This document shows, in pieces, positions 1-64,000 of a DNA stretch of 64,000 nt; positions within the stretch are counted from its first letter, which is position 1, and each line of letters opens with the position of its first letter. The stretch spans positions 363,046-427,045 of the forward strand of contig QPGO01000051.1 in assembly GCA_008632985.1 (NCBI GenBank), in the 5' to 3' direction. The position numbers and the translations under genes are program-made. The stretch comes from Psammoneis japonica (Eukaryota). Under the pieces are notes generated by a model, which did no database searches, was not told the DNA's origin, and was given only the letters and a program-made list of their open reading frames with translations.

Positions 1-1290
1 GCACAAGGCAAGGCACAAATGACGCTGTCATGTTGACACACGAGACTCTCAGAGTCATTGCACAGAAATTGTGCAGAAAAGCACCAGAAACAATTGTTGT
101 CTGTCTGTCTGCCCTTCTGCACTCAAATGTCTGCTTCTCGGGAAATCAATTGAAATGTTGTCTGACCAAAGGTGTCACTCTTCACCATGCAAATCAAAAT
201 GCCTTTGGTCAGATGACATTTCAGCTGAGTTCCCGAAAAGTTGCTGGCTCCAATCACCCTCTTGCATGACATTGTGTGCATTTCTGCACAGTTTGGTGTT
301 TTCCTCATGTGAGGCACACCAATTTTGACTCTTGCAACATTTTCGAATCATGGCTCCCATTGGTTGAATCCTGCAACAATGTCCTGCTGTCAAAATGGGA
401 CAAAGACATTTCCCTCCAAATTGTTGGATGTGACATGTCCCACAAAGACTTTTTGTGAAGGTGAGCAAGATCAAAAAATGCCCATGTCACAAGGACAAAA
501 TCGTCTTGTTGAAGGATGGACAGAAAAAATCTGTGACAGATTGGCGCACAATCACAGCACCCACTTCACACTGGCAAAAAGACAATCTCACAACACCCGC
601 CCGGTTGCAATGTGCAATGCATGAGGCAAGGCGGCACAAATGACGTTGTCATGTTGAGACACACGAGACTCTCAGAGTCATTGCACAGAAATTGTGCAGA
701 AGAGCACCAGAAGCAATTGTTGTCTGTCTGTCTGCCCTTCTGCACTCAAATGTCAACTTCTCGGGAAATCAATTGAAATGTTGTCTGACCAAAGGTGTCA
801 CTCTTCACCATGCAAATGTCAAAATGCCTTTGGTCAGATGACATTTCAGTTGAGTTCCCGAAAAGTTGCTGGCTCCAATCACCCTCTTGCATGACATTGT
901 GTGCGTTTCTGCACAATTTGGCATTTTCCTCATGCAAAATGCCAATTGTGACTCTTGCAACATTTTCGAATCATGGTTCCCATTGATTGAATCTTGCAAC
1001 AATGTCCTGCTGTCAAAATGGGACAAAGACATTTCCCTCCAAATTGTTGGACGTGACATGTCACACAAAGACTTTTTGCAAAGGTGAGCAAGAACAAAAA
1101 ATGCTCGTGTCAAAAGGACAAAATTGTCTTGTTAAAGGACAGACAGAAAAAATCTGTGACAGCTTGGTGCACAATCACAGCATCCACTTCACACTGGCAA
1201 AAAGACAATCTCACAACACCCGCGCAGCTGCAATGTGCGGTGCACAAGGCAAGGCACAAATGACGTTGTCATGTCGACACACAAGATGTG
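1..1290 (+). repeat. Tandem repeat with a unit of about 620 bp (two copies plus the start of a third)
   Basis: The unit start GCACAAGGCAAGGCACAAATGACG occurs at 1, about 619 (variant) and 1242. Copies 1 and 2 align along their length and give near-identical ORFs at 71-328 and 694-894. Confidence 0.9.
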
Positions 1291-2900
1291 CAAAAATTCA
1301 GAAACAAAACACACAAGAAAAATGGACATTCACCCGCTCAGCGCACAAAAGCAGTGCCTTCGGAATGACAAAATGACGCTTGACCAAAGAAAAGATGGTT
1401 GAAGTGGTTGCAACCATCACAAGATTGTCAAGACAAAATGGTCAGAAAATGTCCTTGACCATCGTTGATTGCTTGTGAAACATGGCAGTGCAGCAGAGCA
1501 ACGTGGCACATGATGCAAGCCCGCCAAACTGCGCAAAATCCACAAGCAAGTGAACACCACAATTGGGAGTGTACGTTGAGCACTGGGCGAGATGCCATGT
1601 GCAATTGGTGTCATGAAAGACACAGCAGGACAGCTGGTCCTTGTGTCCATGTGAACAAAATGATGTCAGAGAGAGTGCTTGATGCAACACCATGCACTCA
1701 CATGCAGAGCAAGAGACAAACAATGACACTCTCAAAGGACATTTGGAAATTGGAGCAGCCCTGTGTGTGCTGGCCCATGCAAAACAACAACAGCCATTGC
1801 TGATGGCACAATGCAGTTGATGTGAAAACATTGTTGGACATGTCAATGTCTGTCAAACAACTCCACTTGGCGAGCGACTCTCCAATGTGCAATTGGGGAG
1901 GTGAGTGCAGTGTGCGACTGTCGCGCGCATGTCTGCAATTGCAAATCATTCATGCATCAATCGTGCCACAGTCGTGGATGCATGCAAAGGACAGAATGAT
2001 CACACAGAGTTGAGTGGAAGTTGAAAATTGCAAATGCAGTCAACTGACGAGATGTTGACATCTTGCGCGTCAATTGCAGTCGCACACGGACAATCTGTTG
2101 TCATGATCACAATGTTCTCTGAAAGGCCTTTTGTCTGTGGAAGCAGTGCAGAAGCTTCAGGCCATTGAGAACTCCTTTGGAGAAACCAAAAATCACAGAG
2201 CAAAATTTAATCTCACAATTTCCACTTTTTGCACTTTGCTCTGCTTTTGTTTGCACTTGCACTTCAAGCACCGTGCAAGTGTGAGCCAATCTGATGTGGG
2301 CATTGAACCCACAAAGAAGATCATTCTGGACAATGGATCCACCCCAAGCATGGCAGCAAGCCAGAAAAAGAGTGGACACCCTGGATCAGGACTCTGCTGT
2401 GCCTGGTTGGGGTGACATGAAGTTGGGGTCCAAGCACACGACAGCAAACATCTTGAGTTTCAAGGGTGTCAAGGCCAAAGTGGCAGACAAGTTTCAACTG
2501 CTGGGCAAGAAGACTTGTGAGCAAGCAGCAGTTTTCAAGGCAAACGACATCAAATTGGCTGTTGAAGAGCAGAGGAGCAGAGAAAATTTGACGCTGCCAT
2601 CATCTGCAAACAAGTGCAAGTCTGAGCCCAGAAGATGACATTGAACACAACACCAAATCGGCAACGGTGCTGGCACAACTTGTGTGCGAAATCGACAACA
2701 GACTCAGATCTGCTAAAAAGGGTGTTTCAAGCTCTGGGGAAAAGACATTGCCTGTTGCAGTGGGTGTGTTGTTGACATTGTTGGCGGGGCCCACATTGTG
2801 GAAAGGTGTTCTTGACTGTGACGTGTGATTTTTTCGCGTTCTCAGCATTTGTGCCACATTTGTGCCAATCTGTGCAAGCCATTTTGGCATGTTCACTGCA
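1..2900. other. TpA-depleted block 1 (tandem repeat plus decayed element)
   Basis: Only a few TA dinucleotides seen in about 2.9 kb (e.g. near 1133, 1573, 2714). ORFs here are rich in Cys and His and almost lack Tyr. TA reappears gradually from about 2900 to 3100. Confidence 0.9.
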
Positions 2901-3256
2901 ACCATAAAAGAAATAATTGGCAAGCAACAAAAGAGATGATTCTCACTCTCACGCAAAATTTCAAATTTTCAAATTTTCACTTGCAAGCAAATAACAATGT
3001 TCCTTGCTGAATATGCGCTGTAAAGATTTAATGTCAGAATCGAACATCGTACATCAACACATGTATACGAATATAAAAATTTTAAAAATCGAAAATTCTC
3101 GAAGGGAAACGCCCAATTCTTCTCAAGGAAAGCGCCCACTTCTCCCCACACAACCACAAAAGTTGAAAGGAATTCTGTCGCTCATTGTCTTTGACTTGCA
3201 GTGTAACTCTTTCTGTTCGACTCACGATAGACCCTTCCAACGTCAGTTCTGTGAGC

Positions 3257-4387
3257 ATGCCTCTCATTTTAATTTTTGTAAAAGTTCTTCTTTTGAGCTC
3301 TGTTGCCATCTCGGCAAAAGCTCAAGATCAGTGTCCAGCTAGCACGAGTCTACCCAATGGTTCCACTTTAGTTGCCAGCCTTGTTGTTCCCGAGACAGGG
3401 ACCACCTTCTATGCCAAGCATGGAGGAACTGTGAATGTTGACATCAAGGGAACTGCCTCAATTGGAATCGGCACAGGTAGCAGAGACCTTCATTTCTCGT
3501 ACGTAATTGACAAGAGTCCAAGCACCGAGGGTTCATGTGGGATTCCGGGGAGCACTAAGACAATTTTTGAATGTGAAAAAGATGCGGTCCTTGCTCTTCA
3601 TCAAACCATTGAGGAGGGTGAATCTGCTCTTGATTACGGCGTAGTTGCATTTGATAATGGCGGAGAAAGTATCAAGTGGAATGAGAGCTTTGTCACTACT
3701 GACCGTGGTGATCAAGATGGGGATGTTGCGAATGCCGTGAATGCATTAACAATTGGAAGTGGCACAAACTTTGCTGCTGGTCTCAAGGAGGTATTGAACA
3801 GTGTTACCGAATCAGCTGCGACGGGCCAGAAACGAGTTATTTTCTTGTCAGATGGAGAAGACCAAGGCAATGAACAGGATTTTGATGCCGCACTTCAGGA
3901 CCTCAAAAATGAGGGCGCTAGAATCGATTCATTTGCTGTAGGAGCTAATTCCGTTTGTGATGGTCGACTCCAGGAAATGGCAGACGAAACTGGCGGCGAC
4001 TGTGCTTCAGTTGTAGATGCAGCTGAATTAGAAGATGCTCTCCAAGCATTGCTATCCTCCGAGATCACCTCCGTAGACATCACATTGAATGGGCATGACA
4101 TCACTCAAGTGGTGGGGCCTTTTTCTGGTCCAGTCTCAATGAATGTAGACTCTACCGCAATCGGTTTACCAGAGGGCCAATACAAAGTATGTATTGAAGC
4201 AACTGGTCTTGGTCCTCGAACTGATCCAAGCTCGTCAACTTCTATTGCTTGTTGTGAATGGTTCTATGTCAAAAGTGCTTATCACGGTCCCTATCATGGT
4301 AAATTGAAGGGTTCCTACAAGTACAAAGGCCCGGGTGCAACAAGAAAGAAAAGGGGCAGCCATTGGCACAACGGTTGGTGGTGGTGA
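3257..4387 (+). CDS. Secreted von Willebrand factor type A (vWA) domain protein
   Basis: Signal peptide MPLILIFVKVLLLSSVAISA from ATG 3257. MIDAS-like elements: VIDKSPST (DxSxS), GTNFAAGL and VIFLSDG. Single exon. Confidence 0.85.
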   Translation: MPLILIFVKVLLLSSVAISAKAQDQCPASTSLPNGSTLVASLVVPETGTTFYAKHGGTVNVDIKGTASIGIGTGSRDLHFSYVIDKSPSTEGSCGIPGSTKTIFECEKDAVLALHQTIEEGESALDYGVVAFDNGGESIKWNESFVTTDRGDQDGDVANAVNALTIGSGTNFAAGLKEVLNSVTESAATGQKRVIFLSDGEDQGNEQDFDAALQDLKNEGARIDSFAVGANSVCDGRLQEMADETGGDCASVVDAAELEDALQALLSSEITSVDITLNGHDITQVVGPFSGPVSMNVDSTAIGLPEGQYKVCIEATGLGPRTDPSSSTSIACCEWFYVKSAYHGPYHGKLKGSYKYKGPGATRKKRGSHWHNGWWW

Positions 4388-14689: not shown

Positions 14690-15098
14690 ACACTACTCTC
14701 TTGAATCGAAGGGGTGACGGATGGCGTACAGACAAGAAAACATTGATCAAACACATCATTGGCTCGGCTTCTTGCTTTTGAGAGCTGTGTTTCGACTCGA
14801 CATTTTTTTCAACGGGCTGTTTTGCCACTTGCTTTCCTCAGTTATTTTGAGGCATTGATGTTGGGCATTACAAAGGCTCCATGGACCCTCCCCAAGAGTG
14901 AGGATTGACAAGGCCACACAGAAGAACACACATCAGCTGTGGTTGGCGTTCTTGGTGAAAACTGGCAGAGAAAGCTGGAGAAGAGGGGGCAAAGAGAAGC
15001 AAAGCACAGGTGACTCAGGGGAAAATGCTTCAGACAGCAGCAACAGTGAAAGCCAAGGTGCAGCAGCTGCCACTTGGGTCATTCTGGGGTCAACTTCT

Positions 15099-15130
<32 letters not shown>

Positions 15131-16790
15131 CATCTTTGGGATGACGACAAGCCAGCACTGACAAAGAGATGCCAGCATGAAAGGCCACCAAGCGCTGGTT
15201 GGCATTTCAACCCAACCACAGCTGCAGGATGCCCAGCTCATGTCAGGAAGTTGAGGGGTGAAGAGCCAGACATGGCTGGCTGTGCAAAGGATTTTGCCAT
15301 TCTGTCTTCCAAGAGCTGCAGCCAAGAAGGATGACAAGGAGCCTGCGTGGCAATGGGTTGCTGAAAGAAGCACAACCACTGCCAAGACAGGCAAGGACTT
15401 GATGTTTGTTGAGGACAGCCAAGTTTTGCAGCATGCAAAAAGCAAGAAGTGATGAGTGGCAGTGTTGCAGATTTGTCAACATGCTGCTGCCCCCCAGCAG
15501 TGCCCTGCCAAGCAGATTTCATGCTCTGTGCAGCAGAGGAGCCCATTGACAATTGTGGCAGGAGTGTGGTGTGCAGCTGCAAACCTTTGACAGGTGTGCT
15601 CTCTGGATTGCTTTGCTCAAGAAAGAACAAAATTAAAGCATCCAAACAAGTTCAACTTTGACAACAATGAGTTGCATGAGAGAGCCCAACATGACAAAGC
15701 AAAACAAAGGCTCTCACAATCAAGAGGCAGGCGTCAAAGATGCTGAGGAACATGGAGAGCCCTCTGAGTGTCCATTTGAAGGAAGTTGCAGGTGAGCTCA
15801 GCTCTGCTCCTTTCCACCTTGTTGCTGTTCTTGTGCACCCTTGACAAGGAGAAGGAAGTCATGCAAGAAAAAGCAGCTGGCCACAGCTTTGCCTGTGTTG
15901 CTGAATCAGCCAGCAAAACTGTGTTGGGTTTGAAGGTGCTTTGCAGGTGAGTCCAAGTTGCGCCAAAGTGTTTTCAAGATGAGGTCATTTTGAAGATTGA
16001 GAAGCCACTGCTCAACTTGCAGATAAAAGCTGCCAAAGCTGGTGGTCAAGTGCAAGAAAAAGATGCCAACAAAAAGATGGCCACGACATTGCTCCTGTGG
16101 TGGCAGCTCCAGCCAGTGTTTGGCTCTGAGGCATCAGGCACAGCATGAGGGGTGTGCGCTGCTGCTTCCAGAGCTTGCTGCCTTCCACCATGTGCTTGCA
16201 AGCACTGCCACCAATGGCGCCAATTGCTCCACTCCAAAGTCAAAACCAACACCAATGATTTCCTTTTGCGCTGCAATGTCAGAGAATCCACTCTGATGTC
16301 AAAGTTGCAATGGCATGGGGAGCCAATGTGCCACACCACACATGAGCACCAGCACACTCATTTTGAACCCAAGGCTGGGCCTTGCCTGCCATCTTGACCA
16401 ACAACACCATTCTCTGCTTTGAGAGACTCTTTGTGAAGGCAACCAAGATCTCGGCACCATCACGTCTTGGTGTGAGAAAAGAGGCCTTTTGGGCAGGGCA
16501 CTGCAGCTGACGCCCAGCATTCTTTGCAATGTGAGTGGTGTTCAAGACAAAACTTTGGGAGAATGTTTTCTGTCATGCCAGTGGCCAAATCTGGGAAGCC
16601 ATCAAATGTTGCTTCTGACAGTCCGGGGAGGGGGGAGGCAGCGACATGCCAAAAGCACATTGTCGATGCCAAAGGAAGCAGAGCCCACAGCACAGCCCAG
16701 ATCATGTTCAAACTGTGTTCAGGATGATGACACCGTTTTTTTTTTGTTCCGCTTTGCAGATGTTTGATTCACAGTTCTGCACACGTCAAT
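14690..16790. other. TpA-depleted block 2, containing decayed coding-like sequence
   Basis: About five TA seen in about 2.1 kb (near 14727, 14843, 14869, 15634, 16024). Fragmented ORFs lack Tyr. Weak Sel1-repeat-like remnants (ADAQHSL, AHSTAQI) lie near 16500-16710. Confidence 0.85.
15099..15129 (+). repeat. (CAG)n microsatellite, about 10 units
   Basis: CAGCAGCAG run seen directly. Confidence 0.95.
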
Positions 16791-16955
16791 TATGTGCTGC
16801 ACAGCGAGGATTGTGTCGGCCTCGATGCACAGCAAAAATCGAGCTATCGCGCGTCGAAAAAGCCTCTTTCCGCACTTTCGCCAACGCAATAACGCACTGC
16901 TTCGACTTCCGTCACATTATTGTTGCGAAGCGCGAAGCTCAAAGACCTTTTCACC

Positions 16956-27174: not shown

Positions 27175-29550
27175 TGTCGCACATGGGACAGTGATGCCCA
27201 CTGCTCTGCTCCACACCTGCGCTGACATCGAGCCAGAGATTCATGTTCTTCCTCCAGCGGTGCCTCCTCCAAAGCTGCTTGGTTGTCACCCACCACTTGC
27301 TCAATTCCTGACATCATTGTGAATGGCGCCTTTGCACCCAAGCAGATTTTGGTCAGNTCTACGTGTGATATTTAAAAAAAATTGTCCAGACTCGCTGTTT
27401 TGCGAAGCCCCAGACGTTTTATATAACAAATTTATAGAAACAATAATGCGCCAGTTACATTCTTCAATGTCTGAAGAATGTAACTGGCTAAGTAAAAAAT
27501 GATGTACTTCAATCATGTGCGAGTTTGTGCGTTCGCAAAATTGCCTCATTTTCTGTTGGCGATCATTGACATTTTAATTACCGTATAATTTTAGTACGGA
27601 GCTCGCACGTAGAAGTCTACGGGCCCAATGTCACACGGATTCCCACCTACCGGTACGTCTGGAACGCGTCGTCAATCATCTCCTCAGGCAGTCGAGGTGG
27701 TGACAGCATTGACTGGGGCAGGGCAGAAAACCAAAGTTCCTTCCAAGTCATCATCTTTGTTTGAAACATTTTCCACTCTGCAGGTGCATGTGCAAATCCA
27801 AGCAATCCCTGCAATCACAGCACACTCTTCTTCTCTCTCTGGTGCTCTGGCTTGCCCAACAAGCAGGGTGTGCTGAAAAACACGCGGCCCCACACAGTGC
27901 AAACCACGCCGACTGAGCAGCACCTGCAGCTGCAATCATTCTTTGAGCTGCACTGCACTGCCCTGTTGTTGTGGTTTCATCCTTTCACTTGGACCCCACG
28001 TTTGTGTCTTTCCTGCCAATGGGAGTCAGCGGCCAAGCTTTTCTTGCACCCCACCTGGTGTGCCCGTCTGGATGTTCTCATCCAACAAAGCCCCTTGCAT
28101 GATGCCAAGAATGGGGACAAATCTTCTGCAACCCCCCTCCCCATCTTGTGGCTGATTCAGGAAGCATCTCTCACCCACTCAAGCGCAACGGCAATTGGCT
28201 GCCTGTGCAAGGCCTGCCACACCTCTGACCTCCCCTGGTGGCGAACAAAATGAGTGACAAATCAAGCATTTCTCTGGTTTTGAGGTTGGGGGCATGTCAG
28301 TTGCTCCACCTGCTTCAGCTGGATCCATGGGTCAAGGTGTGGCACCAATGCAAATCTCACAAAAAAGGTCTTGAACACGGCGCTGCTTGTTTCCTCTCTC
28401 AACAACAAGGTGGCACATTGGGGTGCTGTTTTGAGTGCACCACTTCATCACATCAAAGATTGGAAGATGTGCCGCAGCTCTGGGTGGGACCTTTCACTGC
28501 TGCACTTTGACTTCAGAGTTTTTTTTGTCATGACACACATTTCTTCATCCTGCCTTCTGCGCTCTTTTCATGCTCCCCATTTTGTCAAGTCAAAGGCTTT
28601 TCACTTCATGCATTTGTGAAAACAAAAATGGGCTGCACGTGTTCTTCAATGTCTGAAAGGAAATGATGTGCTTCAAGTGTGGAGAAGGTTGTGTGCATTC
28701 ACTCAACTGCCAACAATTTTTCCGCAGGCACAATGTCACAAGCAGCTCCACCCGGGGCCCGGGGCTCAAATGCATCAGGAGACAAGATGACCCATCTGGA
28801 GCCTGCCAGGCAATCTTTTGCTTGGCCCCATGTCAAGTGGTGGTCTTTGCACTCTGGATCTCCAGAGCTTTCTGTGGACAACTTGTGCTTTTTTGTAAGT
28901 GTGCACACTCTTCCCTTTTCAATGTGCCTTGACTTTTCTCTTGTGAAGTCACCAATTGCATCCCACTGATGCTGCTGAGGTCTCTGTGCTTGTAGACAGC
29001 TGACTTTTCATCTCTGTCATCATGGACCATCTGCTGCAGCTCACCTCTCTTCACATGGAGAGAGCCACATCAATTGTGACAAACAAAGTTTCCTCAATGC
29101 ATCAAGTCCAGCAGACATCAGCAAGATGCACAATGCCCCCCCAACTGTGCTCCTGTGGAAGGAGTCGGTCGCACATTGACGTTGAGGTTGTTTTTCCTGC
29201 TGACCCAAGCAATCCATTTGATTCCCATGCCTGTGTAGAAAGTGATCAGGCTGATGGGTTCCACCAGTCTGTCGCATCAGGAACCACTTCATCAATTGCT
29301 GTCAACAAGGATAAAAACACTGAACAAGTCAATGTTTGCATGAGCAACGACGGTGTTGTGAGGAACGAGACTCATCGGTGCCTTCACAGGATGAGCAATG
29401 AAGTTGACCAGGTGTGCTTCTTGTTGGACGACGACCGCTGTGCTGGTGGCAAAGATGGTTGCCGTCACCTCAATGGCGGCACTGCACAAATCATGCCATT
29501 CATTGGCTTCTTGGAACTCGTTGTCATGTGGCATCACGGCCAGAGCATTG
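27175..29550. other. TpA-depleted block 3 (unidentified decayed sequence), interrupted by a TA-rich MITE
   Basis: 27175-27355 and 27671-29550 are nearly TA-free. The inserted segment 27356-27670 is TA-rich. Confidence 0.85.
27356..27670 (+). mobile_element. MITE, TA-intact copy, left part lost in an assembly gap; TSD GTCA
   Basis: GTCA at 27352-27355, then G and an N gap at 27357. The right end TCCCACCTA...CTGGAACGCGTC ends at 27670, followed by GTCA. The body aligns to the reverse complement of about 57441-57750. Confidence 0.85.
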
Positions 29551-29895
29551 GGACTGTAACTCCCCTTCTTCAGATTTCACACTAAAATACTCGCCATATG
29601 ACACACACCAGACCTCTCATCAAGCCTCACCAGGGTATGACAGTCAAGAGCTTCTAGTCTCTCGAGCGCTTCAGAATTATCGTCGTGCATAAAATAAAAT
29701 TAAAAAGCCAGCGTTTCTGTAAGCAGTGCTATTTGGAGTAGGTTGGAAAGTTACTTTAGTTACCGTTTGAAAAGCTAGACTATCCTCGCTCTCTTAAGCA
29801 AAGCTCTTTTTTTAATGCGGCTACAGGATCACGTTCGTGTTTCTTATTTCACTGCTAGTCTACCGGTATAGCGGGCGTGTATTAGCTGCAGCATC

Positions 29896-31245: not shown

Positions 31246-31574
31246 TCCTTCCCTCTTAGTATCTTGTACCGTAGCAATAGGAAGTATTATAAAAACGAGA
31301 CGCATAAACAACAAAGAACGTTGCGATCGTTGGTCGTTGGGTGCGTGTACGGGTATTATTACTGGGTCGTGGCAAAAAGTGCCGCAGAAATGAGTCGCGG
31401 ATAACGCGCCACGCATGACACAAGCACGATGACAAACGCGCGACCAACGCGCATCAAAGGCCGTTCATTGAGATAGAAGAGACGGGCGTTTCCCATGATG
31501 GTTTCGAATGTTTTGTCATTCCTTGATCCTGAGCTTTGCTGACAAGTTGGGTTACAGTTGGGTTCAAAAGCAAA

Positions 31575-33680: not shown

Positions 33681-33897
33681 AGGGATGAATCTATGAAGAG
33701 TTGAATTCCATGCACTGCAACACAACATGAGAAACTACATTTGCTGCATGATTTTTTACGGCAATGACGGTTCGGAAATGATGACATCCGTGACCCAGAA
33801 TCATTCACGAGTAATAATTAGGTAATGAGCTTTTCCGATCGTGACGTGGGCCTTCTTTCTGCATTATCGCGCCACTTCATCATTTTTCGAGTTCACC

Positions 33898-53812: not shown

Positions 53813-54202
53813 GACATGCTCCAGGTCCAGGTGGGACCTCGCACCACTGAACTGTGACATCGACAGTTTTTTGAATCACATCGCATGTCGCGCACGTAGA
53901 TTTCCACGTGATTTTTTTGATGTTTTGTGTCATTTTACGGTGCACTCATTTGGCGATCCGTCCAACAACTTTTGACATTTTTTGTCACAGCGCAATTCTA
54001 CAATGTCTCAAGAATTGCGTGGGGCAGGTGCATTTGCAAAAACGTCGAGTGGCAAGAGGCACAATTGTGCCACAAACTTGGCCGTTTGTTTGATGTTGAA
54101 GACAAATGTGTCCATTGATTGAATTCTCGCACTGCAGAGCTCGCACGTGGAATTCTACGAGCCCAATGTCACACGGAGTCCTGCCTGTGGATGGAAGGTG
54201 TC
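53813..54202 (+). mobile_element. 390-bp MITE; TSD AGGT
   Basis: Left end GACATGCTCCAGGTCCAGGTGGGAC, right end GTCCTGCCTGTGGATGGAAGGTGTC. AGGT at 53809-53812 and 54203-54206. Colinear with 55071-55460. Confidence 0.88.
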
Positions 54203-54359
54203 AGGTGGCAATCCCAGGGAATTTTGAGAAATCACATGGCAAAACCAAACTGAGCTCCATTGGGTGCATCCAGAAGTGTTTCATTTTGGCCATGACCCCA
54301 CTTTTGCACACTCCCCTGTTCTCATCCACCATGCAGGCTGACACCTGAGAAGACAGAAC

Positions 54360-54942
54360 GGGTCTCCGTTTTTCTGGATTTCCGGGTTTCCATTTTTCAG
54401 GAATTTTGGGTTTCCGTTTTTCCGGATTTCCAGGTTTCCATGTTTCCGGGTTTCCGGATTTCCAGATTTCCGGGTTTCTGCATTTCCGGATTCTGGGTTT
54501 CCGTTTTTCCGGATTTCCAGCTTTCCGGGTTTCCGTTTTTCAGGATTTCTGGGTCTCCATTTGTTGGGATTTCTTGGTTTCCATTTTTGCAGATTTCCAG
54601 ATTTCTGGGTTTCTGGATTTCCGGGTTCCCGGGTTTCCGCATTTCCGGGTTTCTGCATTTCCGGATTTCCGGGTTTCCATTTTTCCGGATTTCCAGATTT
54701 CTGTTTTTCTGGGTTTCCGCATTTCTGGATTTCTGGGTTTCCATTTTTCTGGATTTCCGGATTTCCAGGCATCCGTTTTTCCAGATTTCCGGTTTTCCGT
54801 TTTTCCGGATTTCCATTTTTTGGGTTTTCTGGGTTTCCGTTTTTCAAGATTTCCAGATTTCTGGGTTTCCGCATTTCCGGATTTCTGGGTTTCCATTTTT
54901 CCAGATTTCTGGGTTTCCATTTTTCTGGATTTCCAGGTTTCC
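54360..54942 (+). repeat. 9-bp minisatellite (TTTCCGGAT / TTTCTGGGT / TTTCCGTTT variants)
   Basis: Continuous 9-bp periodicity that produces the repetitive NPEKRK / FPDFRV pseudo-ORFs. Confidence 0.9.
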
Positions 54943-55070: not shown

Positions 55071-55460
55071 GACTTGCTCCAGGTCCAGGTGGGACCCAAA
55101 GCTGCTGAGCTGTGACATCGACAGTTTTTTGAACAATGTTGTGTGTTGCGCACGTTGATTTCTGCATGACTTTGGCAACATTTTGTGTCATTTTGCGGTG
55201 CACTCATTGAGCAATCCATCCAACAACTTTTGTCATTTTTTGTCACAGTGCGACTCTGCAATGTCTTGAGAATCATGCAGGGCAGGCGCGTTTGCAAAAA
55301 CGTCAAGTGGCAAGAGGCACAATTGCACCACAAACTTGGCCATTCAATTGATGTTGAAGACAAATGTGTCCATTGATTAAATTCTTGCACTGCGAAGCTT
55401 GCGCGCAGAGTTCTGTGGGCCCAATGTCACACGGAGTCCTGCCCAGGGCTGGAGTGCATC
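55071..55460 (+). mobile_element. 390-bp MITE; TSD AGCA
   Basis: Left end GACTTGCTCCAGGTCCAGGTGGGAC, right end GTCCTGCCCAGGGCTGGAGTGCATC. AGCA at 55067-55070 and 55461-55464. Confidence 0.88.
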
Positions 55461-56030: not shown

Positions 56031-57284
56031 CCACCCGCCCTTTGTGATTTTGCACCCTTTGCTGCCATTTTGCACCCTTGGCCATTTTGCACCCTTTGTG
56101 ATTTTGCGCCCTTGGCCACTTTGTGCCCTTTGTGATTTTGCGCCCTTTGACGCCATTTTGCACCCTTTGTGTTTTTGCGCCCTCGGCCATTTTGCACCCT
56201 TTGTGATTTTGCATCCTTTGTGATTTTGCGCCATTTTCCACCATTTTGCACCCTTTGTGATTTTGAGCCCTTTGTGGTTTTGCACCCTTTGCCGTTTTGC
56301 GCCCTTTGTGATTTTGCGCCCTTGTCCATTTTGCACCCTTTGTGACTTTGCACCCTTTGCCGCCATTTTGCACCCTTGTCCATTTTGCACCCTTTGTGAT
56401 TTTGCGCCCTTGCCCATTTTGGGCCCTTTGTGATTTTGCACCCTTTGCCGCCATTTTGCACCCTTTGTGATTTTCAGCCCTTTGTGATTTTGTGCCCTTT
56501 GCCATTTTGCACCCTTTGTGATTTTACACCCTTTGTGATTTTGAGCCCTTGTCCATTTTGCACCCTTTGCCACCATTTTGCACACTTGGCCATTTTGCGC
56601 CCTTTGTGATTTTGCACCATTTGCTGCCATTTGGTGCCCTTTGTGATTTTGCACCCTTGGCCATTTTGCGCCCTTTGTGATTTTGCCCCCTTTGCAATTT
56701 TGCACGCTTCGTGATCTTGTGCCCTTGTCCGTTTTGCACCCTTTGTGATTTTGCACCCTTTGCCGCCATTTTGCACCCTTGGCCATTTTGCGCCCTTTGT
56801 GATTTTGCATGCTTTGCCGCCATTTTGCACCCTTTGTGATTTTGCGCCCTTTGCCATTTTGCGCCCTTTGTGATTTTGCACCCTTCGTGATTTTGTGCCC
56901 TTGTCCGTTTTGCACCCTTGTGATTTTGCACCCTTTGCCGCCCATTTGCACCCTTGGCCATTTTGCACCCTTTGTGATTTTGCACCCTTTGTGATTTTGA
57001 GCCCTTGTCCATTTTGCACCCTTTGCCGCCATTTTGCACACTTGGCCATTTTCTGCCCTTTGTGATTTTGCACCACTTGCTGCCATTTTGCGCCCTTTGT
57101 GATTTTGCACCCTTGGCCATTTTGCGCCCTTTGTGATTTTGCCCCCTTTGTGATTTTGCACCCTTTGTGTGCAACACACAGCTGCTGACAAGAGTTGATG
57201 TGTCACGGCGATGTGTTGCAGCCTTCAAATGTCACAAAGGGCATGACAAAAAACAACCTTTTGTCTGCATGCATGCTGCATTGT

Positions 57285-57355
57285 GAATTCACAGCGGAGT
57301 GGTTCATCGCAACCATCAGGCAGGAGGCCAGGGGTTCGAAACCCTGAGTGGGAGT
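57285..57355 (+). ncRNA. tRNA-like Pol III promoter relic inside the TRIM
   Basis: A-box-like CAGCGGAGTGG (TAGCGGAGTGG if TA is restored) and B-box/T-arm CAGGGGTTCGAAACCCTG about 40 bp downstream. No clean cloverleaf. Confidence 0.5.
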
Positions 57356-57440
57356 TGTCTGCAGCAACGTTGATCACTGTCGAACGCACAAAACTCTGTG
57401 CAGTTCTGTGTGTTCCTTCGCACGCACCCACACTGTTCCG

Positions 57441-57836
57441 GACGGGTTCCAGTCCCAGGTGGGACTTTTTGTGACATTGGGCCCGTGGAATTCTGCGCGC
57501 GAGCTCCGCAGCAAAATCATCAAGCAATGGACACATGAATGATCGCCAACAGAAAAAGAGGCAATTTTGCGAACGTGTCTCCTCCTCCACACTTGAAGTG
57601 CATTCTTTGCAGCATGCCCGGGTGCACTCTTCAGACATTAAAGAACACACCCAGTGCATTTTTGTTGACACAAGTGCAGACAACAGAAAGCCTTTGGCTT
57701 CGCAAAACAGGCAGTGTGGAGCAATTTTTTACAATGGAACACGTAGAAATGCATGTGCAAAACATGCGGCGGATGACAAAAAACAATCATGTCACAGTTC
57801 AGCAGCACGAGGTCCCACCTAGAGCTGGAACACGTC
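57441..57836 (-). mobile_element. 396-bp MITE nested in the TRIM; TSD TCCG
   Basis: TIRs GACGGGTTCCAGTCCCAGGTGGGAC and GTCCCACCTAGAGCTGGAACACGTC. TCCG at 57437-57440 and 57837-57840. Confidence 0.92.
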
Positions 57837-59104
57837 TCCGCCAAAACTGTGCAGTGTCAGCACACGTTGGCAAAGAGCCGTGTGGACGCGCGACACATGG
57901 GGAGGAGTGCAACACACAGCTGCTGGCGAGAGTTGATGCATCACGGCAACGTGTTGCAGCCTTCAAATGTCACAAAGGGCATGACAAAAATGACCTTTTG
58001 TCTGCATGCATGCTGCATGTGATCTTGTGCCCTTGTCCGTTTTGCACCCTTTGTGATTTTGCACCCTTTGCCGCCATTTTGCACACTTGGCCATTTTGCG
58101 CCCCATGTGATTTTGCACCCTTTGCTGCCACTTGGCACCCTTTGTGATTTTGCACCCTTGGCCATTTTGCACCCTTTGTGATTTTGCGCCCTTTGACGCC
58201 ATTTTGCACCCTTTGTGTTTTTGCGCCCTCGGCCATTTTGCACCCTTTGTGACTTTGCATCCTTTGTGATTTTGCGCCATTTTCCACCATTTTGCACCCT
58301 TTGTGATTTTGAGCCCTTTGTGGTTTTGCACCCTTTGCCGTTTTGCGCCCTTTGTGATTTTGCGCCCTTGCCCACATTGCACCCTTTGTGACTTTGCACC
58401 CTTTGCCGCCATTTTGCACCCTTGTCCATTTTGCACCCTTTGTGGTTTTGTGCCCTTTGCGATTTTGCACCCTTTGTGATTTTGCGCCCTTTGTGATTTT
58501 GCACCCTTGGCCATTTTGCGCCCTTTGTGATTTTGCACCCTTTGTGATTTTGTGCCCTTGGCAATTTTGTGCCCTTTGTGATTTTGCACCCTTTGCCGCC
58601 ATTTTGCACCCTTTGTGATTTTGCGCCCTTGACCATTTTGTGCGCTTTGTGATTTTGCACCATTTGCCACCATTTTGCGCCCTTTGTGATTTTGAGCCCT
58701 TTTTGATTTTGCGCCTTTTGCCATTTTGCGCCCTTTGTGATTTTGCACCCTTTGTGATTTTGAGCCCTTGTCCATTTTGCACCCTTTGTGATTTTGCACC
58801 CTTTGCCACCATTTTGCACACTTGGCCATTTTGCACCCTTTGTGCACCCTTTGTGATTTTGCACCCTTTGTGATTTTGCACCCTTGGCCATTTTGTGCCC
58901 TTTGTGATTTTGCGCCCTTTGACGCCATTTTGCACCCTTTGTGATTTTGTGCCCTTGGCCATTTTGCACCCTTTGTGATTTTGCATCCTTTGTGATTTTG
59001 CGCCCTTGCCCACATTGCAGCCTTTGTGACTTTGCGCCCTTTGCCGCCATTTTGCGCCCTTTGTGATTTTGCACCCTTTGTGATTTTGCACCCTTTGCCA
59101 TTTT

Positions 59105-59364
59105 GGCCTGTTCCAGCTCCAGGTGCTCCGCGCGGGTTCGATTCCCATCATTTGGAAATTTGTGCATTTGGCACAATTGACTTTTTCCAGGTCGGTTTTT
59201 TGCCAAATCGAGGGGCAAGTGTGCACTTTGCATGTGTTTTCGGGTGTGCACTCACCTTTTGATTTTCAAAACAATCAAAATTGAAGGAGCCAATTGCGCT
59301 AAACTGCACAGAAAATCGGCCTCTCGCGTGATGAAAAGCAGATCACCTGGAGCTGGAAAAGGCC
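59105..59364. mobile_element. 260-bp MITE in the satellite; TSD TTTT
   Basis: 21-bp TIR GGCCTGTTCCAGCTCCAGGTG / CACCTGGAGCTGGAAAAGGCC with one mismatch. TTTT on both sides; removal restores GCCATTTTGCACCC. Confidence 0.9.
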
Positions 59365-59517: not shown

Positions 59518-60072
59518 GACGTGTTCCAGCCCCAGGTGACGCACAAAACGACAATCGGATTTTGAACACAATTTGTGTGTGTTTTAGTGCACAAAGCATT
59601 TCAACAAAAACACTTGGACGGATTGACTTTCACAAGCTTCTGGAGTGTGAGCATTTAAATGGTTTTTTGCAGGGCATTCAAATCCTCATGGGATGTGCAT
59701 CATGAACTTCCTCAGCAGACTCAATGCTGATTGCACGTCAGCAGATTTGTGCTGAGATTTTTTTGCAGGCAGAAAACCCACCAAGTGGCATCGCAGAAAG
59801 ACATGTTCAGGTGACATCCAAACAACGGCAGTGTTTTCGCCGAAAATCATCCGTTGTGTTGCGAATCTTTTAGTGCAATGAAAAACACAGACAGCACAGT
59901 GACAATGACATTGCAACACTCACACGAGTCTTGTCAGTGTTGCAAAACATGCACATTTGTGCAAATCCATGCTTTTGGTGGTGAAAGTTCGATCGCAAGT
60001 TGGGGACCGCGCAAAAATCGCGCAAATGTTGTTTTTGTGCACGATTTGGTTCACGCGCGGCTGGAACACGTC
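59518..60072. mobile_element. 555-bp MITE in the satellite; TSD CCCT
   Basis: TIR GACGTGTTCCAGCC / GGCTGGAACACGTC. CCCT at 59514-59517 and 60073-60076. Confidence 0.9.
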
Positions 60073-60162
60073 CCCTCTGTGATTTTGCGCCCTTGCCCAC
60101 ATTGCACCCTTTGTGACTTTGCACCCTTTGCCACCATTTTGCGCCCTTTGTGATTTTGAGCA

Positions 60163-60841
60163 CTCAAGGAAAAAAAACATGTCTTTTCAAGGAAAACAAA
60201 CATGTCCTTTTGAGGAAAACAAACAGCATTCACTCATTTTCAAGGAAAACAAACGTGTCTTTTCAAGAAAAACAAACATGTCTTTTCAAGGAAAACAAAC
60301 ATGTCTTTTCAAAGAAAACAAACATGTTGTTTCAAGGAAAAAAAACATGCAAGTTCTTTCAAGGAAAAAAAACATGCAAGTTCTTTCAAGGAAAACAAAC
60401 ATGTCGTTTCAAGGAAAACAAACATGTTGTTTCAAGGAAAACAAACAAGTCGTTTCAACGAAAACAAACATGTTGTTTCAAGGAAAACCAACACGTCATT
60501 TCAAGGAAAACAAACGTGTTGTTTTGACAAAGACAAACATGTTGTTTCAAGGAAACCAAACATGTTTTTTTGAGAAAAACAAACATGTCTTTTCAAGGAA
60601 AACAAACATGTCATTTTACAGAAAACAGACATGTCTTTTCAAGGAAAACAAACATGTCATTTCAAGGAAAACAAGCGTGTCTTTTTAAGGAAAACAAACA
60701 CTTCATTTCAATGAAAACAAACGTGTTGTTTTGACAAAAACAAACGTGTTGTTTCAAGGAAAACAAACATGTTCTTTCAAGGAAAACAAGCACGTTCTTT
60801 TAAGGAAAACAAGCACGTCATTTCAAGGAAAACAAACATGC
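60163..60841 (+). repeat. 23-bp minisatellite (CATGTCTTTTCAAGGAAAACAAA)
   Basis: About 29 degenerate units in tandem. Confidence 0.92.
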
Positions 60842-60939
60842 AAAAAAGAAAAAAGAGAGCATCTGTTGGCAGCACTGCCAGTGAACCATGTTGTTCACAA
60901 GCACGTGCCTCTGGCACAAAGAGCACATTTCCACAATGC

Positions 60940-61520
60940 TGTGTTGCTGAGATTGGCGCCATGTTGTGCTTGCAGCCTGATCTTCCCAACGAATGTGCTG
61001 AGGATGGCTTTGCTCTTGGAATTTGGTTGGACAACCAGTGGCCACAAAACACAAGCTCAGCAAGCTCAACATTGAAAAAGAAGAAAAACTTGAGGAGGCT
61101 GGTGCCAAGTGGCTCTTGTGGGAAAATCAATGGGGCACAATGCCCTCTCTTCTCAAGCAATTCACGAAATGGGAGGGACATTGCAGCATGCCAAGGTGCC
61201 ACAACGAGGGTTGGGAGAACCTTGGAAAATGGTCAAGCGACCAACGGGATGCCACAAGGAAAAGGAAACTTGATGCTTCTCAACAGGAATTGCTGGAGAA
61301 GGCCAGAGCCAAGTGGGGCATTCTGGCTGAGCATTGGGAGACTGTGTTTTCTCTTCTCAAACAGCTTGTGGTGCACGGGGGGAAGCTGCAAAGTGCCCCA
61401 TTGTCACACTGAAAATGGAGAGAGACTTGGACATTGGCTGGACACGCAAAAGCAAGCATGGAAGGCTGGAAGACTGAAGAACAGCCACACAAACCAGCTG
61501 CGAGATCTTGGCATGTTTTC
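60940..61520 (+). pseudogene. Decayed helicase-associated (HA) domain repeat gene
   Basis: Three HA-like repeats across shifting frames: LGIWLDNQ; WGTMPSLLKQFTKWEGHCSMP...LGKWSSDQR; WETVFSLLKQL...CKVP...LGHWLDTQK...LRDLG. Confidence 0.75.
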
Positions 61521-61919
61521 GTCCAACAGCGGTCTCTGCTGCAAGCTGCAGCATGCAGAAGCAGAAGAGACAAAGAGAGTGCTCCAAAAGATTGACGCTT
61601 TCAAGGAGAAAGCAGACTCAAGCATCAAGACCATTCAAGCGCCAGCTGGTCCTCAAGACAATCCGAAGACATGCAAACATTGGATGACAGCAGATGCTCC
61701 AGAGGATGCAGCAGCAGCACTTTGGACATGGAGTCAACATCATTTTGGACAGGCCAAAGGTGCACCTCCTGCTGTCCCTCCCCTGTCCGTGGACTTGGGG
61801 CATGAGGGGAACGCTGTCGGGGAGCATGACACCAGCCAATTGAGCCTTGCTGCCTTGTTGCTTGTCTGGCACCTCCATCAATGCACACCTCCAGCTGTGA
61901 GCAATTCTTTGTCTTCCGC

Positions 61920-62230
61920 CACTTTGTTGTCTAAATTGAAGACATGGCCCAACAATCAACTCTGGTGTGATTTGCTGGGCGCAGCTGGGCATGAGCTTGA
62001 GCTGCCAAAGTGTTCTTTCCATGCCATTGAGTGGGATTTCACTGAGCGCAGAGAGCCACACACTCGCCCTCACCGTGAAGACCTTGGCATTGAAGTCTTC
62101 TCTGCAGACAGGCCCAAGTCCCGCTCTGGCACTCAACTGTCAGCTTGTGCTCTGCACAAAACCCTCGGACACTGCTTGGCTCCAATTGGTGCCCAGAGGA
62201 CTCAGCTGAAGAAAATCTTGCACAAGATGG
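61920..62230 (+). mobile_element. Relic of a non-LTR retrotransposon RT C-terminal region (Ambal-like)
   Basis: QLWCDLLGAAGHELELPKCSFHAIEWDF...HKTLGHCLAPIG matches the recalled post-YVDD segment W.DLL..SGG.LELPKC...W.F...HKTLG.Y.AP.G of diatom non-LTR elements. Confidence 0.7.
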
Positions 62231-62364
62231 CGCAACGCACCAAATTCTGTTGAGAGCATCCAGGTTCCGACCTCAGAGACAACCGCATTTTTCAACTTGG
62301 CAAAACGCCGTTGTCTGCGCCATTTTCATCGGGCAGGTTCTTGCTGTTCTGCAGCTCTGTCGTG

Positions 62365-63205
62365 GCCAGCAAAATGGCCAAGGGCACAAAATCAAAAAGG
62401 ACAAAAAATGTCTGTTGAGGGCGCCAAATCACAAAGAGCACAAACCAGGCAGGGGCACAAAATTGCTGAGGTCACAAAATGGCTGAGGGCGCAAAATGGT
62501 GGCTGAGGGCACAAAGCTGCCAAGGGCAAAAAATCAGAAAGGGCCCAAGGTGGCAAAGGGCACAAAACCACAATGGCCAAAAATTGCTGAAGGCACAAAA
62601 TCATGAGGGGCACCAAATGCGGCTGAGGGCCCAAAACCAAAAAAGGCACAAAGTGGACAAGGGCACAAAGTCACAAAGGGTGCAAAATGGCAAGGGCACA
62701 AAACCACAAAAAGCACAAAATGCTCAAGGGCACAAAACAGCCAAGGGCACAAAAAGGTCAAGGGCACAAAGTCAAGAATTGCGCAACATGGCTGAGGGCC
62801 CAAAACCAAAAAAGGCACAAAATGGCCAAGGGCACAAAGTCACAAAGGGCACAAAGTCACAAAGGGTGCAAAATGGCAAGGGCACAAAACCACAAAAAGC
62901 ACAAAATGCTCAAGGGCACAAAAAAAGGAAAGGGCACAAAACAGCCAAGGGCACAAAAAGGTCAAGGGCACGAAGTCAAGAATTGCACAACATGGCTGAG
63001 GGCCCAAAGCCAAAAAAGGCACAAAATGGCCAAGGGCACAAAGCCACAAAGGGTGCAAAATGGCCAAGGGCACAAAACCACGAGATGTGGCAAAGTGCTC
63101 AAGGGCACAAAAAAAGGAAAGGGTGCAAAACAGCCAAGGGCACAAAAAGGTCAAGGGCGCAAAGTCAACAATTGCGCGACATGGCTGAGGGCACAAAGCC
63201 TCAAA
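62365..63205 (-). repeat. Satellite related to the 56-60 kb array, in inverted orientation, with higher-order repeats
   Basis: Units AAGGGCACAAAA / AAATGGCCAAGGGCACAAAGTCACAAAGGGTGCAAAATGG are the reverse complement of the 17-bp family. Longer blocks recur at a spacing of about 185-210 bp. Confidence 0.85.
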
Positions 63206-63328
63206 GGTGCCCCCAGCGCCAAACACTTGCGCCGCAAATCTTGTTTGATCAGCGCCCTGCCAGTGGGCTGCGTCTCTTCAGTGCCCCGCTGCAACATGTG
63301 GCGAGATTGTTCTCGATTTAAAGACCAC

Positions 63329-63548
63329 CGAAAATGCGAAAATGCAAAAATGCGAAAATGCAAAAATGCGAAAATGCGAAAATGCGAAAAAAAAAAATGC
63401 GAAAATGCAAAAAAAATGCGAAAATGCAAAAAAAATGCGAAAATGCAAAATGCGAAAATGCGAAAATGCGAAAATGCGAAAATGCGAAAATGCGAAAATG
63501 CGAAAATGCGAAAATGCGAAAATGCGAAAATGCGAAAATGCGAAAATG
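63329..63548 (+). repeat. 8-bp tandem repeat (CGAAAATG)n
   Basis: Perfect GCGAAAAT units toward the 3' end and GCAAAAAT variants toward the 5' end. Confidence 0.95.
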
Positions 63549-64000
63549 ATGTGACGCACCAAATTCCGTTGAGAGTGTCCAGATTCCGACCTCAGAGACA
63601 ATCGCATTTTTCCATTTGGTGAAACGCCGTTGTCCGTGCTGTTTTGCGTGTTGCTTTGAGCCGCAGAGCCAGAAAACACTCCCAAAAAATTGCCCTGCAG
63701 GGCAAACAAAAGAGCAGCACAGAAAGAGAAACTGTGCGCAAATTGAGCGGTTGCAAACATGTGAAGCCTCAGCAAAATACACAGCACGAATGGCAGCGCA
63801 TGAGGTCGGCTGCGATGCAACAGAAGCGACGTTGTCAATGCGAACCTTCGGCAAGAATTTTTGCCATGATCTGCCCATGCGGGCCTTGACGTTCTCGAGC
63901 TTGTCTCACAGAAGATGATGTGACAGCGCCAAGCTCCATTGAGAGCATCCAGGTTCCGACCTCAGAGATGACTGCATTTTTCAGTTTGGCAAAACGCCGT

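What the first reader, a model, noticed from the sequence alone, without database searches (positions are those of the whole stretch)
1..64000. Candidate genome-defence system: repeat-targeted erasure of TpA (TA to TG/CA), the reverse of fungal RIP
Seen: five sharply bounded blocks, about 22 kb in total, nearly lack TA while the genes between them have normal TA. The blocks contain only transposons, satellites and dead duplicates, and CpG persists in them. Established: fungal RIP (CpA to TpA) creates TA, and 5mC deamination removes CG. Neither removes TA, and GC-biased gene conversion is not dinucleotide-specific. Inference: an A-to-G (T-to-C on the other strand) mutator specific for TpA acts on repeated or heterochromatic DNA. 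Candidates are a DNA adenine deaminase, a mutagenic adenine or thymine modification, or a targeted error-prone repair pathway. I know of no described mechanism for this, but I could not check the literature.
Basis: partly seen in the sequence, partly recalled or inferred. Interest (0 to 1): 0.95.

Follow-up and report, generated by a model that had tools for sequence, protein, structure and literature searches.

The report
TpA-erased junk DNA in a diatom
About a third of this stretch of a diatom chromosome is gene-poor junk DNA in which almost every TA has been mutated to TG or CA, the same odd mutation pattern recently caught in action in one unrelated alga.

Summary
The core observation is real. 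Five blocks (21.8 kb) hold 43 TA where 877 are expected at the rate outside them (TA o/e 0.03 against 0.56-0.64).

CpG does not persist: its o/e is 0.41 against 0.97. Only part of the blocks is recognisable repeat.

The TG+CA excess (66.6 per kb) equals the TA deficit plus the CG deficit (68.8 per kb). So two processes converge on TG/CA.

Polarity is supported. A TA-bearing copy of a MITE-like repeat aligns its TA sites with TG or CA in three block copies (14 of 23, 7 of 16, 13 of 23). Variation among the family's copies, read from contigs built from a public run, is 13 of 17 A>G or T>C at TpA. Those contigs also reproduce the TA-free sequence, so this is not a polishing artefact.

Gene relatives place the window in a diatom.

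The kind is already described. A 2026 preprint shows TpA-only A>G/T>C hypermutation in Bigelowiella natans. This window is a new, saturated case in a second lineage.

Repeat targeting is not shown. The enzyme is unknown.

The parts
1..2714 (.). Block 1: TA-free DNA (3 TA, o/e 0.015; CG o/e 0.38). It contains a tandem duplication, 4-666 against 627-1286. Low TA continues to about 2905.
   Evidence: duplication (93.3% identity; 6 of 8 adjacent double mismatches are CA|TG)
14869..16791 (.). Block 2: TA-free DNA (3 TA, o/e 0.026; CG o/e 0.16), no recognisable family. It lies between two genes, and a ZIP transporter gene starts at about 16957.
27358..27670 (+). TA-bearing copy (23 TA) of a MITE-like high-copy element, cut on the left by a single N at 27357. 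TA-free DNA flanks it on both sides (27079-27359 and 27671 onward).
   Evidence: summed contig depth about 1e5 against 58.8 for single-copy DNA
27654..29557 (.). Block 3: TA-free DNA (5 TA, o/e 0.043; CG o/e 0.32). Mostly single-copy by depth; 28314-28791 is moderately repeated.
31553..33692 (.). Block 4: TA-free DNA (3 TA, o/e 0.023; CG o/e 0.25), single-copy by depth.
32605..32739 (-). Dead 45-residue fragment of the neighbouring glycosyltransferase gene (29899-31464, minus strand). A Tyr of the gene is His in the fragment.
   Evidence: tblastn E 4e-10, 56% identity
50875..64000 (.). Block 5: 13.1 kb of TA-free DNA (29 TA, o/e 0.033; CG o/e 0.51) that runs off the window's end. It holds satellites, MITE-like copies, a pseudogene and a LINE-like remnant.
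53813..54196 (+). MITE-like copy, TA-poor (4 TA).
55071..55453 (+). MITE-like copy, TA-poor (1 TA).
57441..57836 (-). MITE-like copy, TA-poor (4 TA), with 25-nt terminal inverted repeats (84% complementary).
54359..54942 (.). 8/24-bp satellite (unit TTTCCGGA), TA-free and CG-bearing.
56038..59105 (.). Two arrays of a 17/88-bp satellite (56038-57169 and 58040-59105) on either side of a MITE-like copy. The same satellite lies inverted at 62370-63207.
60164..60840 (.). 23-bp satellite, about 29 copies.
61002..61515 (+). HA-domain (PF03457) pseudogene. Its two domains lie in different frames, and the 512-residue frame through it has no Tyr.
61516..62268 (+). Internally deleted fragment of a LINE-like ORF2. 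Its relatives are proteins of about 1500-2040 aa with an Exo_endo_phos domain and weak RVT_1 and zf-RVT matches.

Best explanation
The blocks are gene-free junk domains of a diatom nuclear chromosome: satellites, MITE-like copies, a LINE-like remnant, pseudogene fragments and unidentifiable DNA. Nearly every TpA in them has been turned into TpG or CpA by a locally confined A:T>G:C transition process that needs the TpA context and hits both strands. Ordinary CpG>TpG/CpA decay acted on the same domains.

Shown: the depletion, its sharp edges, the budget (TG+CA gain equals TA loss plus CG loss), the polarity TA>TG/CA in one repeat family, and the presence of the TA-free sequence in contigs built from a public run.

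Inferred:
1. The process is the one measured in Bigelowiella natans mutation-accumulation lines.
2. Chemically it is deamination of adenine to hypoxanthine at TpA in DNA, read as G at the next replication.
3. It is aimed by a chromatin or methylation state of the domain, not by repeat homology.
4. It acts in episodes, since a TA-bearing MITE-like copy sits between TA-free flanks.
5. It serves to disable foreign or selfish DNA permanently.
For: Depletion and controls: blocks TA o/e 0.03, ORFs 0.56, inter-ORF DNA 0.64, at equal G+C.

Budget: TA deficit 38.2 per kb plus CG deficit 30.6 per kb gives 68.8; TG+CA excess is 66.6 per kb.

Polarity: the TA sites of the TA-bearing MITE-like copy align with TG or CA in three block copies at 14 of 23, 7 of 16 and 13 of 23 sites. 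TA is kept at 1, 1 and 1 site. TG is kept at 14 of 21, 12 of 15 and 12 of 17; CG at 10 of 16, 8 of 15 and 5 of 15.

Family-wide: of the 17 variant places that run X1 lists in 27358-27650, 14 are A>G or T>C, and 13 of those 14 lie in TpA.

Paralogs inside blocks differ mainly by YpR classes. CA|TG makes up 6 of 8, 12 of 19 and 2 of 2 adjacent double mismatches; a pair outside the blocks had none.

Both strands are hit: TG o/e 1.69 and CA o/e 1.74, and TG and CA outcomes are interspersed.

Protein level: the 512-residue frame has no Tyr. At the 3 columns where LINE-like relatives have Tyr, the window has CAT (His), TGC (Cys) and TTC (Phe).

Not an assembly artefact: one 10,164-bp X1 contig covers 28524-34500 with 5 other letters and 5 indels.

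Precedent: in B. natans 230 of 231 mutations in two viral inserts were A>G or T>C, and the text states that all of these fall on TpA. It also reports 124 TpA-poor, CpA+TpG-rich clusters (preprint Results). By that paper's thresholds 19 of 64 1-kb windows here pass.
Against: No new mutation was observed here. Polarity rests on one repeat family whose copies are only 64-72% identical, so some columns are misaligned: 6-9 of the TA sites per pair align with neither TA, TG nor CA.

CA|TG double differences can also come from an ancestral CpG.

Run X1 is from the same sample as X2 and may be the data the assembly was made from. It excludes a polishing artefact, but not a chemistry shared by all reads of that DNA.

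No genome is held, so no deaminase or other candidate gene could be sought.

No viral gene was found in the blocks, unlike the B. natans targets.

The TA-bearing MITE-like copy inside TA-free DNA shows that the process is not acting continuously on everything in a domain.
Confidence: 0.75

Rival explanations
1. The signature is the same, but the hit base is thymine. A thymine modification in the TpA context (for example oxidation to 5-hydroxymethyl- or 5-formyl-uracil, which can pair with G) gives T>C on either strand. No adenine deaminase is involved.
For: TpA is its own reverse complement, so T>C and A>G cannot be told apart from the sequence. The link of modified thymine with TpA in some protists and the mispairing of 5-formyluracil are recalled, not from any call.
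Against: Nothing in the window speaks for it over adenine deamination. No genome is held in which to look for the enzymes. The B. natans authors favour an ADAT2-like adenine deaminase, but only from a gene's presence.
Confidence: 0.15
2. A homology-dependent, RIP-like system. Duplicated DNA is recognised as such, perhaps at a sexual stage, and only then mutated at TpA.
For: Block 5 is mostly repeats. Block 1 holds a tandem duplication whose copies diverged by CA|TG after duplication. Old, heavily mutated copies would no longer look repeated.
Against: Most of blocks 3 and 4 lies in one contig at depth 58.8, the same as the gene between them. A member of a very high-copy family keeps 23 TA while three other members 26-30 kb away have 1-4. 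In B. natans the main target is single-copy and the lines were asexual.
Confidence: 0.1
3. A sequencing, base-calling or polishing artefact, for example a modified base in heterochromatin read as G or C.
For: The assembly has a single N at 27357 and differs from the X1 contig by 5 indels in 6 kb. X1 is from the same sample.
Against: Contigs built separately from a public run give the same TA-free sequence. A TA-bearing element lies between TA-free flanks. Paralogs in blocks carry fixed CA|TG differences. The loss of TA reaches the protein level in a pseudogene and a LINE-like remnant.
Confidence: 0.03
4. RNA editing of repeat transcripts (ADAR-like A-to-I with a 5' U preference), followed by reverse transcription and re-insertion.
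For: A 5' U preference of ADAR is cited in the preprint's Discussion. One LINE-like remnant is present.
Against: Satellites, MITE-like DNA elements, a gene fragment and unique DNA are all affected within continuous blocks with common edges. TG and CA are equally enriched and interspersed. Editing one transcript strand would give only one of the two.
Confidence: 0.02
5. Foreign DNA that arrived with a TA-poor composition, or selection against TA in these stretches.
For: None beyond the composition itself.
Against: The same repeat family exists with and without TA in this genome. A fragment of the neighbouring host gene lies inside block 4. TA o/e of 0.03 over non-coding satellites has no selective rationale.
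Confidence: 0.01

Closest known systems
TpA-specific hypermutation of integrated viral DNA in Bigelowiella natans (Mettrop et al., bioRxiv 10.64898/2026.01.13.699255). I read the abstract, Results and Discussion; the supplements are closed.
   Same: TpA>TpG/CpA only. It is confined to sharply limited regions among normally mutating genes. TpA-poor, CpA+TpG-rich clusters are scattered in the genome. The TpA-poor coding sequences there average 1.8 TpA per kb, against 2.0 per kb in the blocks here. Reverse-transcriptase and DDE domains are enriched among them. It looks episodic.
   Different: The host here is a diatom (Stramenopila), not a chlorarachniophyte (Rhizaria). Here only the end state is seen, not new mutations. 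The erasure is saturated, whereas the B. natans NCLDV insert has Rho TpA 0.45. No viral gene was found. A clear CpG decay lies over the same domains, which the parts of the preprint that I read do not mention. The blocks fill about a third of this window.
Fungal repeat-induced point mutation (RIP)
   Same: Irreversible, regional hypermutation of non-genic or duplicated DNA by transitions in a dinucleotide context, leaving sharply bounded compositional blocks.
   Different: The direction is opposite: RIP makes TpA from CpA, and here TpA is destroyed. G+C is unchanged here, whereas RIP lowers it. Dependence on duplication is not seen for blocks 3 and 4. The lineage is different.
5-methylcytosine deamination (CpG decay) in methylated repeats
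   Same: CpG is 2.4-fold depleted in the blocks with a matching TG/CA gain. Paralogs differ by CG|TG and CG|CA (8 and 17 sites).
   Different: It cannot remove TpA. In the MITE-like comparison CpG survives far better than TpA (5-10 of 15-16 sites against 1 of 16-23), so the two processes are separable.
ADAR / ADAT-type adenine deamination and APOBEC-type editing of retroelements
   Same: Deaminase-like transitions with a neighbour preference (5' U/T for ADAR), used against repeats and viruses.
   Different: Those act on RNA or on single-stranded reverse-transcription intermediates and mark one strand of a retroelement. Here chromosomal DNA of all kinds is affected on both strands.

Membership tests
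TpA-specific regional hypermutation (B. natans type) | [quoted passage not shown] | tested here: met
   19 of 64 windows pass, in runs of 3, 2, 1, 2, 3 and 8. The thresholds are from the preprint's Results; my Rho formula for CpA+TpG may differ slightly from theirs.
TpA-specific regional hypermutation (B. natans type) | Changes are almost only A>G / T>C and fall on TpA | tested here: met
   TA sites go to TG or CA at 14 of 23, 7 of 16 and 13 of 23 sites. 13 of the 17 variant places among family copies are A>G or T>C in TpA. This is indirect, from paralogs and not from new mutations.
TpA-specific regional hypermutation (B. natans type) | Mutation rate about 1000-fold raised in the region in clonal lines | not testable with these tools
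   Needs mutation-accumulation lines or pedigrees.
TpA-specific regional hypermutation (B. natans type) | Targets are of viral or other foreign origin | tested here: inconclusive
   There was no viral Pfam family in 87 block ORFs. A LINE-like remnant and MITE-like copies are present. Most block DNA is unidentifiable.
TpA-specific regional hypermutation (B. natans type) | An ADAT2-like deaminase candidate in the genome | not testable with these tools
   No genome is held for this window.
Fungal RIP | C>T at CpA, raising TpA and lowering G+C | tested here: not met
   TpA is removed, CpA and TpG are raised, and G+C is 0.482 against 0.475.
Fungal RIP | Acts on duplicated sequence only | tested here: inconclusive
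   Blocks 3 and 4 lie at single-copy depth, but old copies could have diverged beyond recognition.
CpG decay through cytosine methylation | CpG deficit with a matching TpG/CpA excess in the same DNA | tested here: met
   CG o/e is 0.41 against 0.97; paralogs show CG|TG and CG|CA differences. Methylation itself was not measured.
MITE (non-autonomous DNA transposon), for the high-copy element | Short element, terminal inverted repeats, high copy number, no coding capacity | tested here: met
   About 396 bp with 25-nt terminal inverted repeats, 84% complementary. Four copies lie in the window. Summed contig depth is about 1e5 against 58.8. Target-site duplications were not examined.

The most novel reading that the evidence does not exclude
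A chromatin-directed DNA mutator that irreversibly erases TpA is not a peculiarity of one chlorarachniophyte. It is an old or recurrent genome-defence arm of SAR protists. In diatoms it is coupled to the cytosine-methylated, silent compartment and runs to saturation, so that whole junk domains become free of TA, of two of the three stop codons and of TA/TTAA transposon target sites. The enzyme may be a new kind of DNA adenine deaminase, or one enzyme that works on both YpR dinucleotides.
Probability: 0.3. Interest if true: 0.9.

Novelty: new member of a known kind. Interest (0 to 1): 0.72.

Why it matters
RIP has long been the only known system that destroys selfish DNA by directed point mutation of the chromosome. 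A second system with the opposite chemistry was reported only in 2026, in one alga and as a preprint.

Its saturated end state in a diatom, a distant and ecologically dominant lineage in which some species can be transformed, would show three things:
- The process is widespread.
- It shapes a large share of the genome.
- It can be followed to its enzyme. A natural TpA-specific DNA adenine editor would also interest base-editing work.

It matters for annotation as well. TA-free DNA has long open frames in all six frames, which invites false gene calls.

Tried and rejected
Whole-genome look-up: no genome is held. So there was no genome-wide map, no family consensus and no search for a deaminase.

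Earlier notes of this scan, by place, words and sequence: nothing.

Pfam on block ORFs: of 87 ORFs of 100 aa or more, only two reached a curated cut-off, both HA. I did not repeat it in pieces.

Homologue search with the 512-residue frame by the word-index tool: no hit. The exhaustive search then found HA and LINE-like relatives.

Tyrosine test on the whole alignment: of 4 Tyr-consensus columns the query had L, W, H and F, which is weak. On LINE-like relatives alone, 2 of 3 columns fit the prediction.

The diatom assignment therefore rests on the named hits of one ZIP transporter at 44-55% identity plus algal families DUF3007 and DUF2358.

Rfam and tRNA scans: nothing.

RNA: no RNA holder was listed. 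Run X2, filed as 'DNA?', behaves like RNA: it has a 170-nt GT..AG joint and covers genes. It has next to no cover on blocks 3 and 4.

Literature: eight searches found only the B. natans preprint for TpA-only hypermutation and nothing for diatoms. PMC4504042 (two passages seen) and 10.1101/2025.10.24.684338 (term search, 0 occurrences) were irrelevant.

UV TA photoproducts and TA-targeting transposons were considered as causes of TA loss and dropped, from recall. Neither gives transitions confined to gene-free blocks.

Full report
**1. Observation**

A sliding count of dinucleotides shows windows with 0-7 TA per kb beside windows with 24-63. Gaps between successive TA give five blocks: 1-2714, 14869-16791, 27654-29557, 31553-33692 and 50875-64000, 21,807 bp in all.

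| DNA | TA per kb | TA o/e | CG o/e | G+C |
|---|---|---|---|---|
| Blocks | 2.0 (43 TA) | 0.03 | 0.41 | 0.482 |
| Rest of the window | 40.2 | 0.58 | 0.97 | 0.475 |
| Long ORFs outside blocks | 36.8 | 0.56 | 0.96 | 0.485 |
| DNA between ORFs outside blocks | 47.7 | 0.64 | 1.01 | 0.452 |

At the outside rate 877 TA are expected in the blocks (Poisson log10 P about -307). 200 mononucleotide shuffles of the block DNA never gave fewer than 1378. Edges are sharp to within tens of bases.

**2.

CpG does not persist. It is 0.16-0.51 per block and 0.41 overall, against 0.97 outside. Over 500-bp windows TA o/e and CG o/e correlate (Spearman 0.65). TA-poor windows have a median CG o/e of 0.43, against 0.94 for the others. 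Only four TA-poor windows keep CG o/e of 0.8 or more, and they are CG-bearing satellites.

The budget closes. The TA deficit (38.2 per kb) plus the CG deficit (30.6 per kb) is 68.8 per kb, and the TG+CA excess is 66.6 per kb. Two processes that both end in TG/CA explain the composition, and also why G+C does not change.

**3. What the blocks contain**

Block 5 holds:
- satellites with units of 8/24, 17/88 and 23 bp;
- three copies of an element of about 396 bp with 25-nt terminal inverted repeats, which I call MITE-like;
- an HA-domain pseudogene with its two domains in different frames;
- at 61516-62268, an internally deleted piece of a LINE-like ORF2. Its relatives are proteins of about 1500-2040 residues with an Exo_endo_phos domain and weak RVT_1 and zf-RVT matches.

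Block 4 holds a 45-residue fragment of the neighbouring glycosyltransferase gene. Block 1 holds a tandem duplication. Otherwise blocks 1-3 gave nothing: of 87 block ORFs of 100 aa or more, two reached a Pfam cut-off, both HA.

Long frames in the blocks are no sign of genes. Without TA, two of the three stop codons cannot occur.

**4. Is it real DNA?**

One public run of the same sample (X1, coded) holds 94% of the sampled words of 27358-34500. One of its contigs, 10,164 bp long, covers 28524-34500 with 5 other letters and 5 indels, at the same depth (58.8) as the gene between blocks 3 and 4. So the TA-free sequence is not a product of polishing, and blocks 3 and 4 are single-copy at the level of 31-mers.

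X1 may be the data the assembly came from, so it is not an independent isolate.

A second argument needs no reads. The MITE-like copy at 27358 to about 27670 has 23 TA, yet TA-free DNA flanks it on both sides (27079-27359 and 27671 onward). A base-calling fault caused by a modified base in that domain would not spare it.

**5. Polarity**

The TA-bearing copy was aligned with each of the three block copies:

| Block copy | Identity | TA sites aligned with TG or CA | TA kept | TG kept | CG kept |
|---|---|---|---|---|---|
| 57440-57760 (-) | 72.3% | 14 of 23 | 1 | 14 of 21 | 10 of 16 |
| 53880-54200 (+) | 70.7% | 7 of 16 | 1 | 12 of 15 | 8 of 15 |
| 55140-55460 (+) | 63.9% | 13 of 23 | 1 | 12 of 17 | 5 of 15 |

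The remaining TA sites align with other dinucleotides, partly through misalignment at these identities.

Family-wide, X1 lists 17 variant places in 27358-27650, where summed contig depth is about 1e5. Of these, 14 are A>G or T>C, and 13 of the 14 lie in TpA.

Inside blocks, paralogs differ mostly by YpR classes:
- CA|TG makes up 6 of 8, 12 of 19 and 2 of 2 adjacent double mismatches.
- CG|TG plus CG|CA give 8 and 17 sites.
- A pair outside the blocks had no double mismatch.

CA|TG pairs show one palindromic ancestor resolved on different strands after duplication. That ancestor could be TA or CG, so this test alone does not separate the two processes.

TG and CA are equally enriched (o/e 1.69 and 1.74) and interspersed, so both strands are hit.

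At the protein level the 512-residue frame has no Tyr. At the 3 columns where LINE-like relatives have Tyr, the window has CAT, TGC and TTC.

**6. Organism**

The window's own proteins are not in the large protein collection; the best relative of the peroxidase-ankyrin protein is 73% identical. All named relatives of the ZIP transporter are diatoms, at 44-55% identity: Cylindrotheca, Seminavis, Nitzschia, Mayamaea, Minutocellus, Leptocylindrus, Dactyliosolen and Chaetoceros. DUF3007 and DUF2358 fit an alga. The genes are mostly intron-free long ORFs.

I conclude that this is a diatom and not Bigelowiella natans. The assignment rests on few genes.

**7. Mechanism**

The best reading is a regional, TpA-dependent A:T>G:C transition process on chromosomal DNA, with ordinary CpG decay in the same domains.

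- That it is adenine deamination (A to hypoxanthine, read as G) is an inference by analogy. A thymine-side chemistry cannot be excluded from sequence, because TpA is its own complement.
- Targeting looks regional. Blocks end within about 250 and 206 bp of the ends of the contig of run X2 that covers the glycosyltransferase gene (29807-31347). Single-copy DNA is affected. One member of a very high-copy family is spared while three others are erased.
- The overlap with CpG decay suggests the methylated, silent compartment as the address. Methylation was not measured.
- The spared young insert suggests action in episodes, as in B. natans, where only 11 of 15 lines mutated.
- A defence role is plausible but untested here.

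**8. What is known**

Eight literature searches found one description of TpA-only hypermutation: Mettrop et al., bioRxiv 10.64898/2026.01.13.699255. I read the abstract, Results and Discussion; the supplements are closed.

In B. natans mutation-accumulation lines, two integrated viral regions mutate about 1000 times faster than the rest of the genome. Of 231 changes, 230 are A>G or T>C, and the text states that all of these fall on TpA. The genome has 124 TpA-poor, CpA+TpG-rich clusters and 324 TpA-poor coding sequences (mean 1.8 TpA per kb) enriched in reverse transcriptase and DDE domains. An ADAT2-like gene is offered as a candidate.

By that paper's thresholds 19 of 64 1-kb windows here pass.

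So the kind is described, though only as a preprint and without an enzyme. Nothing was found for diatoms.

**9. Verdict**

- A real and striking feature.
- A new member, in a diatom and saturated, of a kind known from one recent preprint.
- 'Repeat-targeted' and 'CpG persists' are not supported.
- The enzyme, the targeting signal and the function remain open and are testable (see next steps).

Noticed in passing
window 14500-14640: A CTAG-rich, TA-dense low-complexity stretch, with a 21-bp tandem repeat at 14523-14563, lies a few hundred bases from the edge of TA-free block 2. It contrasts sharply with the block.
   Followed up: no
window 27357: A single N cuts off the left part of the MITE-like copy. 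It is probably an assembly join inside a very high-copy repeat.
   Followed up: partly
window 46214-50569: A DUF1800 gene (split over two frames, 46214-48100 and 48126-48599) lies next to a DUF1501 gene (48737-50569). From recall, these two families are mainly bacterial. Here they sit side by side in a diatom chromosome with normal TA content.
   Followed up: no
window 8946-10163 (-): An intron-free gene for a haem peroxidase fused to ankyrin repeats. The best public relative is 73% identical. Hundreds of relatives with the same fusion exist in marine data sets.
   Followed up: partly
window 56038-59105 and 62370-63207: Arrays of the 17-bp satellite lie in opposite orientation on either side of the 23-bp satellite and the HA/LINE remnant. 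This gives a large imperfect palindrome and strong opposite AT skews.
   Followed up: no
window 34196-34365: A contig of run X2 joins 34195 to 34366, skipping 170 nt with GT..AG ends. This is an intron in the DUF3007 gene, and it suggests that X2, filed as 'DNA?', is RNA-derived.
   Followed up: partly
protein P0353 (public cluster representative): An HA-domain protein of 279 residues without a single tyrosine. It may have been predicted from TA-free DNA in this or another organism.
   Followed up: no
blocks, all: The 43 residual TA are mostly in TTAA (10), TTAC or GTAA (13), and GTAG or CTAC (7). I could not tell whether this reflects a flank preference of the mutator or fresh mutations.
   Followed up: no
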